Shown here piece after piece: positions 13,418-16,886 of a DNA stretch of 64,000 nt. Below the pieces are notes generated by a model, which was given only the letters and a program-made list of their open reading frames with translations, ran no database searches and was not told the origin of the DNA. Every line of letters starts with the position of its first letter. Positions within the stretch are counted from its first letter, which is position 1. The DNA comes from an uncultured Holophagales bacterium (GTDB taxonomy: Bacteria; Acidobacteriota; Thermoanaerobaculia; Multivoradales; UBA5704): the NCBI GenBank assembly GCA_963842525.1, contig CAWJGT010000034.1, positions 128,001 to 192,000 on the forward strand. Direction: 5' to 3'. The position numbers and the translations under genes were made by a program.

Positions 13418-13702
13418 ATGACCCTCACGATCGACCTGTCGCCGGAGCTGCAAGAGCGCCTCAGCCGAGAAGCGGCCCAGCAGGGTATCCCCATCGAGAG
13501 CTACGCGCTCGAGCTCCTGGACAAGCACCTGCCGCCCGAGGATCGCCCCGCCGAGCTGATCTCGCTGCTCCAGTCCTGGATCGAGAAAGGAGATGCAGAG
13601 GAGCAGGGGGAGACCGGGGAGTATCTGGTCCGCGTCCTGGACGAAGACCGCCTCTCCGATCGCAAGCTGTTTCCCCCGGAGCTCAAAGGCGTGACCTGGT
13701 GA
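13418..13702 (+). CDS. Putative antitoxin-like small protein (RHH-like N-terminus)
   Basis: GGAGGAGG RBS upstream; MTLTIDLSPELQERLSREAAQQG resembles type II antitoxin N-termini. Confidence 0.6.
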   Translation: MTLTIDLSPELQERLSREAAQQGIPIESYALELLDKHLPPEDRPAELISLLQSWIEKGDAEEQGETGEYLVRVLDEDRLSDRKLFPPELKGVTW

Positions 13703-13808
13703 GTTTGCCCTGTTCTTGGCGGTAGCGCGCTTCACCGAGGCGATATACTTCTCCCTCTGGCGGTGCACCAACCTGCCTCCTTAGAGGCATGGCTCGCTAG
13801 GGGACGAC

Positions 13809-14045
13809 ATGGCAGCTCAAATAATTGGACGGCACATCGTAACCGACCCTGGTATCTGCCACGGCCAACCCACCTTCCGCGGCACGCGCGTCCTCGTCTC
13901 CGACGTGTTGGAGGAGATCGCTTCCGGTATGGCCTGGGAGACCGTGATCCAGGAATGGCACGGGAGCATCACCAAAGAGGCCATTGCCGAGGCACTGCAA
14001 CTGGCCACCTTCGATTGCGGCTGCCCCGAAGGGGCAAAGGCGTAA
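13809..14045 (+). CDS. DUF433 family antitoxin
   Basis: IVTDPGICHGQPTFRGTRVLVSDVLEEIASGM...ITKEAIAEAL is the DUF433 signature. Confidence 0.85.
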   Translation: MAAQIIGRHIVTDPGICHGQPTFRGTRVLVSDVLEEIASGMAWETVIQEWHGSITKEAIAEALQLATFDCGCPEGAKA

Positions 14046-14218
14046 AGCCTGGCGCTTCAGCGCCAGTCAGCGTTCCCCCAACCCTCCAAGCCCCGAAGGG
14101 GCGACGGCATAGGCGAGGGGCGCGAGCCCCGCTGCGGGCGGATGGTAGAGAATGCCTACGCCCCTTCAGGGCTCCAGGTAATTGGGGGGCGCCAACCTGG
14201 CGCTGAAGCGCCAGGCTT
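14023..14218. repeat. GCCCCGAAGGGGC-type REP element; its right arm is interrupted by the IS and completed at 15822-15846
   Basis: Left arm GCCCCGAAGGGGC-12nt-CCTGGCGCTTCAGCGCCAG (14023-14066); right arm CTGGCGCTGAAGCGCCAGGCTT | TATGCCCCAGCCCCTTCGGGGC. Confidence 0.8.
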
Positions 14219-14598
14219 CTATGTGGGCCCCCGTTGTCAAGCGTTTCGGGTAAGTGGGTCTGCGTTTCGTCTCCTTCCTGAATGCCGCCTGAGGTTTGTT
14301 GCCCGGAGAGCTCCCCCGGCAGCAAGGTGCTGTTTCTCCTACCTCAAATGCGATCCCGTCTGGGGCTTGCCGATTGCGCCAGGAACCGTAGTCCCCGTCA
14401 AGCTTCTATCCGTGCTGACCTCCCTCAATTTCTTGGAGAGGGCACCAAATGCAGCATGCGCTGCGAGCGACTCGGGCAAGCAAACGGAGCGGCCCCATCT
14501 TTAATGGCGGCTCGAAACCGAACCCAGCCTGGCGCCGGGCACGCTCCTCCCAGCCTGAAATCTCCTATTTTGCGGTCACACTTTCTGCCTCTTGATCC
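14219..14598 (-). ncRNA. Putative bridge/seek RNA of the IS1111-like element
   Basis: Two bulged hairpins with matches to the target (14526-14535, 14499-14503) and to the donor junction (14403-14409, partial 14447-14452); exact RNA ends unknown. Confidence 0.6.
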
Positions 14599-15738
14599 TT
14601 ACCTGGCCTTCAGCTCAGCGCCATCAGGAATGATCCCTTGGTCCAAGTAGCGCCACAGCGCGGTCAGAAGCTTGCGCGCCAGGGCCACGATCCCTACCCG
14701 TCGCGAGCGCCGGTTCCCAGGGCCATAGCGCCCCTGGAACCATAAGCTCAAGCGGCTCTGCGGCTGGAACCGCAACCACGCCCAGGCGATCTCGATCGAC
14801 ATCGTACGCACCCGCACATTGCCGGACTTACTGATCCCCTGCTCGTGGTCCACCGTCGTGCCGCTCTTGTAGGGCATCGGCGTCAACCCAGCCAAGCTGC
14901 CTACCTCACGGCGATTCCGGAACTGCCGCCAGCCAAAAAATTCCAGGACGAACAACCAGGCGCTGTTGTCGCCGATGGCCTTGAGCTTTTTCAGCCGCTG
15001 CACCATCCCGCCCTCTCTGGACGCGGCTTCGGCCCGCTGCCGAGTTTGCTCCAACTCCTTGATCTGACTCTCCAGAAGCTCCAGCCGCTCGACTTCCCGA
15101 CGCAGACGCTCCCGCAAGACTGGCAGCAGCGGCTCGCCGTTCCACTGCCGCAACTGCTCCAACTGCTGCGCAAACCCCTTGCCTACCTTCACCCGGATTC
15201 CAAGGCTCACCAGCAAGGACTTGATCCGATTGGTGTGGGCCGTCCGCTCCTGCTTCAGGCCCTCCAACTCTCGACCCAGGTGGCGCACATCCTCCTGCTC
15301 CGGCGTCGGCGCATGCGCCACACCGAACACTTTTCTTTCACCTGCCGCGTAGCGGATCAGCAGCGACAGCAACTTCTCAGCGTCAACCCGGTCCGTCTTC
15401 GCCCGCCGAGCCCGACGATTCACCTCGATGCTCGAGGAGTCCACCACAACGTTCTCCACACCCTCCAGCAGCAAGAACCGGTGAAGCCAGAATCCATCCC
15501 GGCCTGCCTCGTAGCAACTCACGACAGGAGTTGTTTCCGGTAAACCGAAACGGTGTTTGGCGCGTCCGATCTCCAACATCAGCCCGTTGAGATCCCCGGC
15601 CGCCACCGAGCGCAGCCGAGGTTTCGGGCCAGCCTCCGCAGCAAAAGCCAACTTCCACTCGCTACCGCCCAGCTCCAATGCCACGTGCAATGCTCTCTCC
15701 GTTCGCGTAAACTCTGCCTTCTGGGCTGTCTGGTTCAT
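14599..15738 (-). CDS. IS110 family transposase/recombinase (DEDD RuvC-like + Transposase_20)
   Basis: SCYEAGRDGFWLHR, KTDRVDA, SLAGLTPMPYKSG, GISKSGN, VALARKL. Confidence 0.95.
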   Translation of the reverse strand: MNQTAQKAEFTRTERALHVALELGGSEWKLAFAAEAGPKPRLRSVAAGDLNGLMLEIGRAKHRFGLPETTPVVSCYEAGRDGFWLHRFLLLEGVENVVVDSSSIEVNRRARRAKTDRVDAEKLLSLLIRYAAGERKVFGVAHAPTPEQEDVRHLGRELEGLKQERTAHTNRIKSLLVSLGIRVKVGKGFAQQLEQLRQWNGEPLLPVLRERLRREVERLELLESQIKELEQTRQRAEAASREGGMVQRLKKLKAIGDNSAWLFVLEFFGWRQFRNRREVGSLAGLTPMPYKSGTTVDHEQGISKSGNVRVRTMSIEIAWAWLRFQPQSRLSLWFQGRYGPGNRRSRRVGIVALARKLLTALWRYLDQGIIPDGAELKAR

Positions 15739-15879
15739 CGGGGTTCCCCTTTCAAACGCTAAGTTCCCCGAAACATACAACCAGCGGCCCCGCTCTTGCA
15801 CCCCCTCGCCCTGCATAGCATCTTTATGCCCCAGCCCCTTCGGGGCCTCTCCAACCGAAGCGAATCTGACAAAGCAGAA

Positions 15880-16791
15880 TTATCCTCTGCCAGTAACGCG
15901 CGCCACCGAGGCGAGCCGGCGGCAGGCCCACACCGCCGCAACGCCGCCTAAAGAAAAGACCACGGCCGCGATCCAGAACGCCGGGTCCGGTCCGCTCTCC
16001 CAGAGCAGCGGCCGCGGCGCGGGCTCGCCCATCCGCCAGACCCAGAGAAAGGTTGCGACGTCCACCGCAGTGTGGAGGACCACGCCCGGCAGGATGGAGC
16101 CTGTGATCCAGGCCAGGGCTCCGAAGAGCACGGAGACGCCCAGGAAGACCGGCATCAGCGCCGGCGACCAGCTCGCATGCGAGGCATGGATCAGGCCGAA
16201 GACGGTCCCGGTGATCAGGATCGCCACCACCACGCCGTGGCGCCGCTCGATGGTCCCCTGCATATAGCCGCGGAAGCCGGCCTCCTCGGATACGCCGGCG
16301 ACCAGGGAGACCATGATGAAGAAGCTGAGGATCTCGAGCGAGGAGAACCGGGACAGGTCGGGGAGCGCCTCCCGCGGAATCGCGATCAGCCGCAGGATGA
16401 GCCGTTGCAGGCCGACCACGCTCGCAATGCCAAGGACGCCCGCGAGCAGCGACCAGCTCCAGGCGCGCCCGGACAGGCGGGTGGCCCGCAAACCCCGGCG
16501 CCGCGCCTCGGCCGTGGACCGAGGCCATCCCCGTCCCCGGAGCCATTGCCAGAAGAGCCCGAGCAGGACCGCCATGACCAGCACCGACCAGGGGATGGGG
16601 AATGCCCAGGGGTGTTTCAGGTTGGCCCCGACCAGGAGCGCCCAGGGTCCGTTGCCTCCGGCCGAAACCAGCAATCCAACGAGGATCGCGCGCGGGATGA
16701 CCGGGAGACCTCGCCAAGCCCTGGCCGCCAAGCTCCCTGCCGCGTCCGTGGGCGTCCTCGTCCTCTCGTTTGCCATTACGTCAGGAACCAT
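15880..16791 (-). CDS. CPBP (CAAX/Abi) intramembrane metalloprotease
   Basis: SEEAGFRG, FGLIH, HTAVD motifs; multiple TM segments; AGGAGG RBS. Confidence 0.85.
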   Translation of the reverse strand: MVPDVMANERTRTPTDAAGSLAARAWRGLPVIPRAILVGLLVSAGGNGPWALLVGANLKHPWAFPIPWSVLVMAVLLGLFWQWLRGRGWPRSTAEARRRGLRATRLSGRAWSWSLLAGVLGIASVVGLQRLILRLIAIPREALPDLSRFSSLEILSFFIMVSLVAGVSEEAGFRGYMQGTIERRHGVVVAILITGTVFGLIHASHASWSPALMPVFLGVSVLFGALAWITGSILPGVVLHTAVDVATFLWVWRMGEPAPRPLLWESGPDPAFWIAAVVFSLGGVAAVWACRRLASVARVTGRG

Positions 16792-16886
16792 CTCCAGCCT
16801 CCTTTCGCGGCGTCCGTGCCGCCTCCATCTCCTCTGAAGATAGGTCTCCAAGCCGCTCTGAGTCCTGGAAAAGAGCTGGGATCTTC

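What the first reader, a model, noticed from the sequence alone, without database searches (positions are those of the whole stretch)
14395..14550. Readable bridge/seek-RNA guides in the IS non-coding end
Seen, reading the minus-strand RNA. Loop 1 is closed by a GGAGCG/GCCC stem (14486-14496 with 14537-14547). It contains GCGCCAGGCU (14535-14526), a 10/10 match to the target left flank plus CT core, and UAAAG (14503-14499), the reverse complement of core plus right flank, on either side of an inner hairpin. Loop 2 has GCAUUU (14452-14447, near donor GCATCT) and AUAGAAG (14409-14403, 7/7 to donor CTTCTAT) flanking a GTGC...GCAC hairpin. This fits the target-loop/donor-loop design of bridge RNAs and gives a ready candidate programmable recombinase. 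Its first RuvC acidic residue appears to be Glu (VALEL) rather than the usual Asp.
Basis: partly seen in the sequence, partly recalled or inferred. Interest (0 to 1): 0.75.

Follow-up and report, generated by a model that had tools for sequence, protein, structure and literature searches.

The report
Bridge RNA of an IS1111-type element
The non-coding tail of this insertion sequence encodes a guide ("bridge") RNA whose short loops spell out the element's insertion site and its own ends, an already known way of aiming a mobile element, shown here for an unstudied relative.

Summary
Window 14216-15823 (minus strand) is an IS110-family insertion sequence. It has a 379-aa recombinase gene followed by a 381-nt non-coding right end, and sits at a CT core in an Acido-Lenti-1-like repeat. 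The genome holds four near-identical copies and 19 empty perfect target sites.

A covariance model finds a conserved RNA of about 210 nt (14348-14563) 3' of the recombinase gene: 79 matches in 83 sources searched. 89% of cells are paired and 34 of 39 pairs show compensatory changes.

Loop 1 carries GCGCCAGGCU and UAAAG, which match this element's own flanks. Two sister elements in the same genome carry GCCCAGGGCU and GGGCGGAGCU, each 10/10 to its own different target. Across homologous loci:
- The 5' guide shares at least 7 nt with its own flank in 23 of 51, against 6 of 3421 mismatched pairings.
- The donor guides follow the element ends.
- The base after the right donor guide is complementary to target position 7 in 44 of 51, the "handshake" reported for IS621.

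No expression data were available. This is a new member of a known kind (bridge RNA / seekRNA of IS1111-type elements). In this clade Glu usually replaces the first catalytic Asp. Interest is moderate.

The parts
14216..15823 (-). Whole insertion sequence with both copies of the core dinucleotide (AG on the minus strand, CT on the plus strand, at 15823-15822 and 14217-14216). The element body is 14218-15821.
   Evidence: Alignment of four copies (98-100% identical) with unrelated outer flanks. Nineteen uninterrupted target sites elsewhere in the genome.
15739..15821 (-). Left end, 83 nt. It starts ATGCTATGCAGG, and CTATG is the left arm of the subterminal inverted repeat.
14599..15738 (-). Recombinase gene: 379 aa, start MNQT..., stop TAA at 14601-14599. 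Acidic residues E22, E77, D116 and D119, and Ser292.
   Evidence: Pfam PF02371 (56.3 bits) and PF01548 (30.9 bits), both above their cut-offs. Conservation. Predicted fold best matches the ISCro4 and IS621 recombinases.
14218..14598 (-). Right non-coding end, 381 nt. It ends ...CCCACATAGA.
14348..14563 (-). Conserved structured RNA (bridge RNA / long seekRNA). Closing stem 14553-14549 with 14364-14360.
   Evidence: Model R1 match of 156.4 bits, the only match in the window. Pair counts. Helix coordinates.
14486..14547 (-). Target-binding loop. Outer stem 14547-14537 with 14496-14486. Inner hairpin 14524-14509.
14526..14535 (-). Left target guide GCGCCAGGCU. It equals + strand 14208-14217 (flank plus core).
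   Evidence: 10/10 in three copies and 8/10 in the C19 copy. The guide covaries with the flank in sister elements and homologs.
14499..14503 (-). Right target guide UAAAG. It equals minus strand 15826-15822 (flank end plus core). The AU at 14498-14497 that follows is a candidate handshake guide for the donor.
   Evidence: The AU equals the first two bases of the left end in 38 of 48 loci.
14449..14452 (-). Left donor guide GCAU, the reverse complement of the first four bases of the left end (ATGC, 15821-15818).
   Evidence: Guide/end pairs GCAT/ATGC 18, GTAT/ATAC 8 and GGAT/ATCC 4, of 48 loci.
14403..14409 (-). Right donor guide AUAGAAG. It equals the last five bases of the right end (14222-14218) plus the core.
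   Evidence: Variant guides ATAGGAG and ATAGACG recur at the matching element ends in L090, L047, L083 and L049.
14402..14402 (-). Handshake base C, complementary to target position 7 (the G next to the core).
   Evidence: Watson-Crick complementary in 44 of 51 loci. Permutations give a mean of 18.9, and 0 of 10000 reach 44.
14412..14445 (-). Inner hairpin of the donor-binding loop (GUGC...GCAC).
   Evidence: Helix 7: 93.3% of cells paired and 6 of 8 pairs with changes on both sides.
14235..14240 (-). TTGACA, 17 nt before the right end. Candidate -35 of a promoter completed only in the circular form.
   Evidence: TTGAC lies 16-17 nt from the end in 42 of 59 loci. The computed junctions put GATNCT-type hexamers at 17-18 nt spacing.
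14196..14215 (+). First hairpin of the interrupted target repeat (CCTGGCGCTGAAGCGCCAGG).
   Evidence: Rfam RF01687 partial match, 27.2 bits..
15824..15850 (+). Second half of the interrupted target repeat (TTATGCCCCAGCCCCTTCGGGGCC...).

Best explanation
Window 14216-15823 is an active IS110-family insertion sequence of the IS1111 type. Its 3' non-coding end, on the recombinase strand, encodes a bridge RNA of about 210 nt (14348-14563).

Inferred mechanism, by analogy with IS621, ISEc11 and their relatives:
1. The element excises as a circle joined at the CT core.
2. The RNA binds the recombinase.
3. Loop 1 holds the target. GCGCCAGGCU pairs with one strand of GCGCCAGG-CT, and UAAAG pairs with the other strand of CT-TTA.
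4. Loop 2 holds the joined ends. GCAU pairs with the left end and AUAGAAG with the right end plus core.
5. After first-strand exchange, the bases next to the 3' guides pair with the partner DNA (the handshake): C14402 with the target and AU14498-14497 with the donor.
6. Ser292, together with the E22/E77/D116/D119 site, cuts and rejoins at the core.

Shown here: the element borders, the target, the conserved structure, and the agreement and covariation of all four guides and the handshake base with the DNA. Inferred: that the RNA is made, that it binds the protein, and the chemistry.

The natural target is a sub-family of the Acido-Lenti-1 repeat.
For: Borders and target. Four copies are 98-100% identical, and identical across the whole gene. 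There are 19 empty 13-mer sites against 0.38 expected.

Recombinase. Pfam PF01548 and PF02371 match. The best fold matches are ISCro4 and IS621, E 2e-10. E77, D116 and D119 are each kept in 195 of 196 relatives, S292 in 193 of 196, and position 22 is E or D in 192 of 196.

RNA. Model R1 gives 79 matches in 83 sources, next to the gene, and 12 matches in this genome, one per element copy. 89.3% of cells are paired, against 32-49% when partners are slid. 34 of 39 pairs have changes on both sides. 0 of 500 shuffles reach the observed values. G-U pairs number 219 against 84 C-A.

Target guides. Variant A has GCGCCAGGCU, B1 GCCCAGGGCU and B2 GGGCGGAGCU. Each is 10/10 to its own flank, and the 3' guides UAAAG and CUCAG also match. 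L085 shows a single-base change in guide and target together. The longest shared stretch between the 5' guide and its own flank is at least 7 nt in 23 of 51 loci, against 6 of 3421 non-self pairings. For the 3' guide it is at least 6 nt in 16 of 46, against 21 of 2909.

Donor guides. 30 of 48 loci have a left donor guide perfectly complementary to the left end, with a covarying middle base. Right donor guide variants follow the right end.

Handshake. 44 of 51 loci, and 0 of 10000 permutations reach that.

Literature. The design and the 3' location are as described for IS1111-type elements (passages and sections read).
Against: - No RNA data. No RNA run was listed, so transcription, processing and RNA ends are unknown.
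- No sigma-70-like promoter was found in the integrated element.
- Single-sequence folding is no better than shuffles (z -0.26 and -0.30).
- In this element the right target guide is only 5 nt and the left donor guide 4 nt. The base where the donor core C would pair is U.
- In 20 of 51 loci the 5' guide shares 5 nt or fewer with the flank I assigned. Causes could be wrong border calls, decayed copies or relaxed specificity.
- Alignment A3 was fitted to the model, which inflates pair counts. The loci are related, so the counts are not independent events.
- The RuvC part of the protein model is only moderately confident (mean pLDDT 70.9; residues 102-117 below 50).
Confidence: 0.9

Rival explanations
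1. Only loop 1 matters. A short processed seekRNA (target guides only) is the working molecule. The ends are recognised by the protein through the subterminal inverted repeats and the flanking target halves. The loop-2 matches are conserved for protein binding rather than for pairing with DNA.
For: The seekRNA paper reports that the predominant RNAs bound to IS1111-type transposases are 82-96 nt and describes only target matches in them (section read). Here the left donor guide is only 4 nt and the right donor guide is almost invariant, so little covariation is possible.
Against: The middle base of the left donor guide covaries with the left end (GCAT/ATGC 18, GTAT/ATAC 8, GGAT/ATCC 4, of 48). 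Four rare right-donor-guide variants match their own right ends. The base after the right donor guide follows the target, not the donor, in 44 of 51 loci. That is hard to explain unless loop 2 meets DNA during strand exchange.
Confidence: 0.07
2. The conserved right end acts as DNA, for example as internal binding sites for the recombinase or an att-like copy of the target, and no RNA is involved.
For: No expression data and no promoter-like site in the integrated element.
Against: There are eight helices with compensatory changes (34 of 39 pairs). G-U pairs exceed C-A by 219 to 84 on the gene strand. The guides lie 180-320 nt from the crossover point, and each is split into two pieces that read opposite DNA strands, as in experimentally proven bridge RNAs (passages).
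Confidence: 0.02
3. Chance, or a captured fragment of the Acido-Lenti-1 repeat inside the element.
For: The target hairpin is G+C-rich and repeated more than 100 times in this genome.
Against: Rfam finds no Acido-Lenti-1 match inside 14348-14563. Sister elements with unrelated targets carry the matching guides at the same RNA positions. Non-self pairings almost never match.
Confidence: 0.01

Closest known systems
Bridge RNAs / seekRNAs of IS1111-type elements (ISEc11, ISPa11, ISKpn4; Siddiquee et al. 2024, PMC11187229; Durrant et al. 2024, PMC11208160, Fig. 6)
   Same: - The long non-coding end lies 3' of the recombinase gene, with the RNA on the gene strand.
- With the DNA read in gene orientation, the segment complementary to the top strand lies 5' of the one complementary to the bottom strand (sections read). 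That is the order here.
- The element has subterminal inverted repeats, and insertion is site-specific with only the core dinucleotide repeated.
- A natural change of guides between relatives goes with a change of target.
   Different: - The recombinase is 379 aa, against 330-350 aa stated for the IS1111 family.
- It is only about 27-29% identical to IS5075/IS4321.
- The first acidic residue is Glu.
- The perfect inverted repeat is only 5 bp (8 of 11 if imperfect).
- The conserved RNA is about 210 nt with two extra hairpins and two long-range closing stems.
- I could not see the published IS1111 structures (figures and supplements are not held), so a helix-by-helix comparison was not possible.
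IS621 / ISCro4 bridge recombinase with bridge RNA (Durrant 2024; Hiraizumi 2024, PMC11208158; PDB 8wt6, 9t56)
   Same: - The RNA has two internal loops. In each, the 5' side reads one strand (8-9 nt in IS621) and the 3' side reads the other (4-7 nt), and both overlap a CT core.
- There is a handshake base next to the right donor guide that pairs with target position 7. Here that holds in 44 of 51 loci.
- The protein has RuvC, coiled-coil and Tnp domains with a catalytic Ser.
- The target lies in a repeated extragenic palindrome.
   Different: - The RNA is at the 3' end instead of the 5' end of the element, so the element lies the other way round relative to the RNA-defined target.
- Sequence similarity to IS621 is confined to the C-terminal domain (29-41 bits).
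- Glu stands where IS621 has D11.
- The left donor guide is 4 nt, and the core-pairing bases on the 5' sides are not conserved in the family.
ISPpu9 of Pseudomonas putida (Pares-Guillen et al. 2025, PMC12288879)
   Same: An IS110-family element inserted in repetitive extragenic palindromes, with an AG dinucleotide at both borders in gene orientation and an RNA gene downstream of the recombinase gene (passages).
   Different: In ISPpu9 the downstream Ssr9 RNA is not needed for transposition, moves as a module of its own, and is not the bridge RNA. Here the downstream RNA carries the guides, and it occurs only attached to the gene (12 of 12 copies).

Membership tests
IS110-family DEDD recombinase | N-terminal DEDD_Tnp_IS110 domain and C-terminal Transposase_20 domain | tested here: met
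   PF01548 scores 30.9 bits (cut-off 29) and PF02371 scores 56.3 bits (cut-off 21.3). Foldseek's best hits are ISCro4 and IS621 over 360-376 columns, E about 1e-10 to 1e-8.
IS110-family DEDD recombinase | Four acidic residues (D, E, D, D) in the RuvC fold plus a catalytic Ser-Gly | tested here: inconclusive
   E77, D116 and D119 are each kept in 195 of 196 relatives, S292 in 193 and G293 in 195. The first position is Glu (E22): E in 172 and D in 20 of 196. In the model it lies in the first strand, residues 17-23. By eye, ALELGG lines up with GIDLGK of IS5075. The site stays acidic but is not the canonical Asp. Activity was not tested.
IS110-family DEDD recombinase | Site-specific insertion with no duplication beyond a shared core dinucleotide | tested here: met
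   Occupied sites read ...GCGCCAGG-CT-[element]-CT-TTATGCC.... Empty sites read GCGCCAGG-CT-TTATGCC.
Bridge RNA / seekRNA | Conserved structured RNA in the long non-coding end, on the gene strand | tested here: met
   79 matches in 83 sources. 89.3% of cells paired and 34 of 39 pairs compensatory. G-U 219 against C-A 84. No Rfam family matches it.
Bridge RNA / seekRNA | Target loop: the 5' side equals left target plus core, and the 3' side is the reverse complement of core plus right target | tested here: met
   10/10 and 5/5 in this element. The guides covary in variants B1 and B2, in L085 and across loci.
Bridge RNA / seekRNA | Donor loop: guides match the joined element ends | tested here: met
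   AUAGAAG is 7/7. GCAU is 4/4, with a possible G-U pair after it. Left-end covariation in 30 of 48 loci. Right donor guide variants follow the right end. The left donor guide is shorter than in IS621.
Bridge RNA / seekRNA | Handshake guide complementary to the partner DNA at position 7 | tested here: met
   44 of 51 loci Watson-Crick, and 0 of 10000 permutations reach that.
Bridge RNA / seekRNA | The RNA is expressed, binds the recombinase and is required for recombination | not testable with these tools
   No RNA run was listed. This needs bench work.
IS1111 group (as against the IS110 group) | The long non-coding end lies downstream of the gene | tested here: met
   Left end 83 nt, right end 381 nt.
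IS1111 group (as against the IS110 group) | Subterminal inverted repeats of 7-17 bp | tested here: inconclusive
   CTATG/CATAG is perfect over 5 bp and sits 3 nt and 1 nt from the tips. It extends to 8 of 11 with mismatches (read).
IS1111 group (as against the IS110 group) | Order of the target matches in the RNA (top-strand match 5' of bottom-strand match, in gene orientation) | tested here: met
   The 5' guide is complementary to the minus (gene) strand at 14217-14208. The 3' guide is complementary to the plus strand at 15822-15826.
IS1111 group (as against the IS110 group) | Recombinase clusters with IS1111-family proteins (330-350 aa) | tested here: inconclusive
   The same profile scores IS5075 at 69.5 bits, against ISCro4 at 40.7 and IS621 at 35.1. 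hhalign to IS5075 gives probability 98.3. But the length is 379 aa, and I made no tree with labelled references. Some IS110-type clusters also have a 3' non-coding end.
Rfam RF01687 Acido-Lenti-1 (the target repeat) | Score at or above the gathering cut-off of 37 bits | tested here: not met
   The window copies score 33.5 bits (14022-14067) and 27.2 bits (the interrupted copy). In the whole genome 98 of 122 listed matches pass. The perfect-target copies straddle the cut-off (28-49 bits).

The most novel reading that the evidence does not exclude
These roughly 380-aa recombinases mostly have Glu at the first catalytic position. They are found in Acidobacteriota, Chloroflexota, Gemmatimonadota, Planctomycetota and Proteobacteria, with a 3'-encoded bridge RNA of about 210 nt. 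They may form a distinct, uncharacterised branch of bridge recombinases, neither classical IS1111 nor IS621-like. Its RNA reads up to about 16 bp of target (10-nt left guide, right guide up to 8 nt) plus a handshake base. Such a branch could be a source of more specific programmable recombinases. It would also explain the orphan Acido-Lenti-1 'RNA motif' as a repeat used as a landing pad by mobile elements.
Probability: 0.3. Interest if true: 0.55.

Novelty: new member of a known kind. Interest (0 to 1): 0.4.

Why it matters
- It adds an independent, purely comparative confirmation of RNA-guided target and donor recognition, including the handshake base, in a branch of the family where the RNA lies behind the gene. 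Published mechanistic work is mostly on IS621-like elements.
- One genome holds three sister elements that differ almost only in their guides and land in three different repeats. This is a clean natural case of reprogramming.
- The element gives a defined recombinase, RNA, target and donor set that could be tested as a programmable recombinase.
- The Glu at the first metal-binding position shows that this position tolerates Glu in a large natural clade.
- It links an orphan Rfam motif (Acido-Lenti-1) to mobile-element biology.

None of this overturns current understanding.

Tried and rejected
- Single-sequence folding of 14216-14600 and 14390-14555 gave z-scores of -0.26 and -0.30. It was uninformative in this G+C-rich DNA, and I used comparative analysis instead.
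- An Rfam scan of 13800-16300 at E up to 10 found no RNA family over the bridge RNA, only sub-threshold Acido-Lenti-1 matches in the flanks.
- phmmer and a profile search against PDB sequences aligned only the C-terminal domain to IS621 and ISCro4. The E22 = D11 equivalence therefore rests on conservation, the predicted strand order and a by-eye match to IS5075, not on a residue-level structural alignment.
- RNA evidence: the look-up of sequencing runs listed no RNA holder, and read laying was therefore not used.
- Promoter scan of the integrated element: 0 sites.
- My first scoring of the 5' guide, a suffix match anchored at the core, undercounted loci where the guide's core bases differ. I replaced it with the longest common substring. 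Both results are reported.
- Tree with labelled IS110 and IS1111 references: not done. IS5075 was the only labelled reference protein I fetched; IS4321 also appeared but I did not fetch it. IS621 and ISCro4 appear only inside the PDB tools.
- Literature search for 'EEDD' together with 'IS110' found 0 papers. This does not show that the Glu variant is unreported.
Supplementary Table 5 and the Data files of Durrant et al. may already list this family and its predicted RNA.

Rows dropped:
- Of the 79 model matches, 72 rows are distinct and give 71 distinct guide pairs.
- A right end was assigned in 52. This required the RNA's own right-donor 7-mer within 500 nt downstream, TTGAC upstream of it, and at least 12 nt of flank. 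One of these had an N, which leaves 51.
- A left end was assigned in 48 (pattern core + A.. + CTAT upstream of the gene), and 46 of those had at least 10 nt of flank.

Full report
THE ELEMENT

The minus strand of window 14599-15816 holds an open frame with the two Pfam domains of IS110-family recombinases: PF02371 at 56.3 bits and PF01548 at 30.9 bits. The likely start is the ATG at 15738 (MNQT...), preceded by a purine-rich stretch. That gives 379 aa.

A search of the window's own genome (9.95 Mb, 34 contigs) found four copies 98-100% identical and eight copies of relatives about 77% identical. When the four copies are aligned, identity starts and stops sharply. In gene orientation the borders read ...GGGCATAA-AG|ATGCTATGCAGG...CCCACATAGA|AG-CCTGGCGC.... 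The element body is therefore 14218-15821, with the dinucleotide AG (CT on the + strand) on both sides. The four copies are identical over the whole gene, and the few differences lie in the non-coding right end. This points to recent movement.

THE TARGET

On the + strand the interrupted site reads CCTGGCGCTGAAGCGCCAGG-CT-TTATGCCCC...CCCCTTCGGGG. This is a two-hairpin repeat that Rfam scores as a sub-threshold Acido-Lenti-1 match.

The 13-mer GCGCCAGGCTTTA occurs 19 times uninterrupted in the genome, against 0.38 expected from composition, always in this repeat. The genome has 122 listed Acido-Lenti-1 matches, 98 of them over Rfam's cut-off. One of the four copies (contig C19) sits in a variant repeat, ACCCCAGG-CT-TTATGCC.

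CHECK OF THE OBSERVATION

The matches follow from the borders above:
- GCGCCAGGCU (14535-14526) equals the + strand flank plus core.
- UAAAG (14503-14499) is the reverse complement of core plus TTA.
- AUAGAAG (14409-14403) equals the right-end tip plus core.
- GCAU (14452-14449) is the reverse complement of the left-end tip ATGC.

NATURAL REPROGRAMMING IN ONE GENOME

The relatives at about 77% identity fall into two variants. B1 has six copies, one of them truncated. B2 has two copies. Both keep the same element tips and the same loop-2 strings.
- B1 lies in AGCCCAGGG-CT-GAGGCCGAAGGCC and carries GCCCAGGGCU and CUCAG at the loop-1 positions.
- B2 lies in GGGCGGAG-CT-GAG and carries GGGCGGAGCU and CUCAG.

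So there are three 5' guides and three targets, each 10/10. A fourth element from another genome (L085, 76% protein identity) has GCCCUGGGCU and lies in CCCTGGG-CT. Compared with B1, that is a one-base change in guide and target together.

A CONSERVED RNA

A scan of one genome per species returned 80 loci with relatives of 49-76% identity, from many phyla. I aligned thirteen 3' regions (A2) and built a covariance model with 39 pairs (R1).

R1 gave 79 matches in 83 sources, next to the gene in nearly every case. The window has a single match, 14348-14563 at 156.4 bits. In the window's own genome R1 finds 12 matches, one per element copy.

On the 72 distinct rows:
- 89.3% of cells are paired, against 32-49% when the partners are slid.
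- 34 of 39 pairs show changes on both sides.
- No shuffle out of 500 reaches the observed values.
- G-U pairs outnumber C-A by 219 to 84, which favours the gene strand as the RNA strand.

Caveats: the alignment was fitted to the model, and the sequences are related.

The structure, in window coordinates, is:
- a closing stem, 14553-14549 with 14364-14360;
- the target loop, with outer stem 14547-14537 with 14496-14486 and inner hairpin 14524-14509;
- a second long-range stem, 14481-14475 with 14371-14365;
- inside that stem: a two-pair helix (14461-14460 with 14452-14451, whose 3' strand overlaps the first two bases of the left donor guide), the donor loop around hairpin 14445-14412, and a further hairpin, 14395-14392 with 14385-14382.

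GUIDES AGAINST DNA ACROSS THE FAMILY

I placed right ends without using the target guides, by the recurrence of the RNA's own right-donor 7-mer downstream with TTGAC before it. I placed left ends by the pattern core + A.. + CTAT upstream of the gene.

| Test | Own flank | Non-self pairings |
|---|---|---|
| 5' guide, longest shared stretch at least 6 nt | 31 of 51 | 48 of 3421 |
| 5' guide, at least 7 nt | 23 of 51 | 6 of 3421 |
| 5' guide, at least 8 nt | 17 of 51 | 2 of 3421 |
| 3' guide, at least 6 nt | 16 of 46 | 21 of 2909 |

In 20 of 51 loci the 5' guide shares 5 nt or fewer. I cannot tell whether this reflects wrong borders, decayed copies or loose specificity.

The donor side behaves the same way.
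- The four-base left donor guide is perfectly complementary to the left-end tip in 30 of 48 loci, and its second base covaries (GCAT/ATGC 18, GTAT/ATAC 8, GGAT/ATCC 4).
- The right donor guide is almost always AUAGAAG and the right end almost always ...ATAGA|AG.
- The rare variants agree with their own ends: ATAGGAG with ...ATAGG|AG in three loci, and ATAGACG with a CG core in one locus, where the 3' target guide also ends in CG.
- The 3'-side guides always contain the core complement AG (71 of 72 for the right target guide). The core positions on the 5' sides vary.

THE HANDSHAKE

The IS621 structure paper reports that bases next to the 3' guides pair with position 7 of the partner DNA after strand exchange (passages). 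Here the base after the right donor guide (C14402 in the window) is Watson-Crick complementary to target position 7 in 44 of 51 loci, and in 49 of 51 if wobble pairs are counted. Permuted pairings average 18.9, and 0 of 10000 reach 44. The two bases after the right target guide (AU, 14498-14497) equal the first two bases of the left end in 38 of 48 loci. This is less telling, because both are nearly invariant.

EXPRESSION (INFERRED)

The integrated element has no sigma-70-like promoter. TTGACA lies 16-17 nt from the right end in 42 of 59 loci. In 37 computed junctions it comes to lie 17-18 nt from a GATNCT-type hexamer made of the core G and the left-end tip, with 3-4 of 6 matches to TATAAT. 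This fits the junction promoter reported for this family (passages). It would drive the gene with the RNA in its 3' part. This is an inference. No RNA run was listed.

THE PROTEIN

E77, D116 and D119 are each kept in 195 of 196 aligned relatives, S292 in 193 and G293 in 195. Position 22 is E in 172 and D in 20.

The AlphaFold model has a mean pLDDT of 70.9. It gives the strand-strand-strand-helix-strand-helix-strand order of an RNase H fold, with E22 in the first strand and E77 at the end of the fourth. Its best PDB matches are the ISCro4 and IS621 recombinases, E about 2e-10.

The family profile scores IS5075, an IS1111-family element, at 69.5 bits and hhalign probability 98.3. It scores ISCro4 at 40.7 bits and IS621 at 35.1 bits.

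COMPARISON WITH WHAT IS KNOWN

[quoted passage not shown] Siddiquee et al. show that IS1111-type seekRNAs carry the top-strand match 5' of the bottom-strand match (sections 9 and 12). Read in gene orientation, the window's RNA has exactly that order.

The element therefore works like, and most likely is, an IS1111-type bridge system. Membership in the IS1111 family proper is not settled:
- The protein is 379 aa, against 330-350 aa for that family.
- The perfect inverted repeat is only 5 bp.
- Some IS110-type clusters also have 3' non-coding ends.
- I made no labelled tree.

VERDICT

The kind of system has been known since 2024, so this is a new member of a known kind. The features worth recording are:
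- natural reprogramming among three sister elements in one genome;
- the handshake signal in a family with a 3'-encoded RNA;
- Glu at the first catalytic position across the clade;
- Acido-Lenti-1 repeats as the landing site.

Noticed in passing
window 14022-14067 (-), 14196-14234 (+); genome-wide in G000: The Rfam motif Acido-Lenti-1 (RF01687, listed in Weinberg et al. 2010 Table 1 as a likely RNA that is not cis-regulatory) behaves here as a high-copy, REP-like two-hairpin repeat. The genome has 122 listed matches, 98 over the cut-off, often in inverted pairs about 150 nt apart. One sub-family of the repeat is the insertion site of this element.
   Followed up: partly
G000 contigs C34, C11, C30, C21, C9 (variant B1) and C23 (variant B2); loci L005-L012: Variants B1 and B2 insert into two other repeated palindromic sequences: AGCCCAGGG-CT-GAGGCCGAAGGCC, which lies next to GGCCTTTCAGGCC hairpins, and GGGCGGAG-CT-GAG. 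The 13-mer targets occur 13 and 5 times, against 1.67 expected for each. One B1 copy (C9:1835830) is truncated at its 5' side.
   Followed up: partly
window 14235-14240 (-) and homologous loci: A perfect TTGACA lies 16-17 nt inside the right end in most family members. In the circle it would face GATGCT/GATACT, formed by the core G and the left-end tip. This looks like a junction promoter with a weak -10.
   Followed up: partly
window 13418-13702 (+) and 13809-14045 (+): Two small genes lie just downstream of the element. One is a ribbon-helix-helix, ParD-like antitoxin candidate (PF09386, 24.3 bits, below its cut-off of 27.3). The other is a DUF433 protein (58.5 bits). No partner toxin gene was looked for.
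   Followed up: no
window 15880-16851 (-): The gene upstream of the element encodes a CAAX protease / Rce1-like membrane protein (PF02517, 66.8 bits). The element sits in the intergenic repeat cluster behind it and does not interrupt a gene.
   Followed up: no
L016:87-292 and L016:2673-2878; L092:1588-1793 and L092:2008-2209: Some loci carry two RNA matches. In L016 the extra match near the start of the locus probably belongs to an adjacent copy of the element. In L092 the two matches lie about 200 nt apart, and the second lacks most of the 5' guide. This may be a partial duplication or nested insertion.
   Followed up: no
window 14308-14309 region (minus-strand text GGGGGAGCTCTCCGGG): The window's copy has two extra bases (CT) in a hairpin of the distal right end compared with the other three copies, and the C19 copy has three substitutions there. 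This part lies outside the conserved RNA.
   Followed up: no
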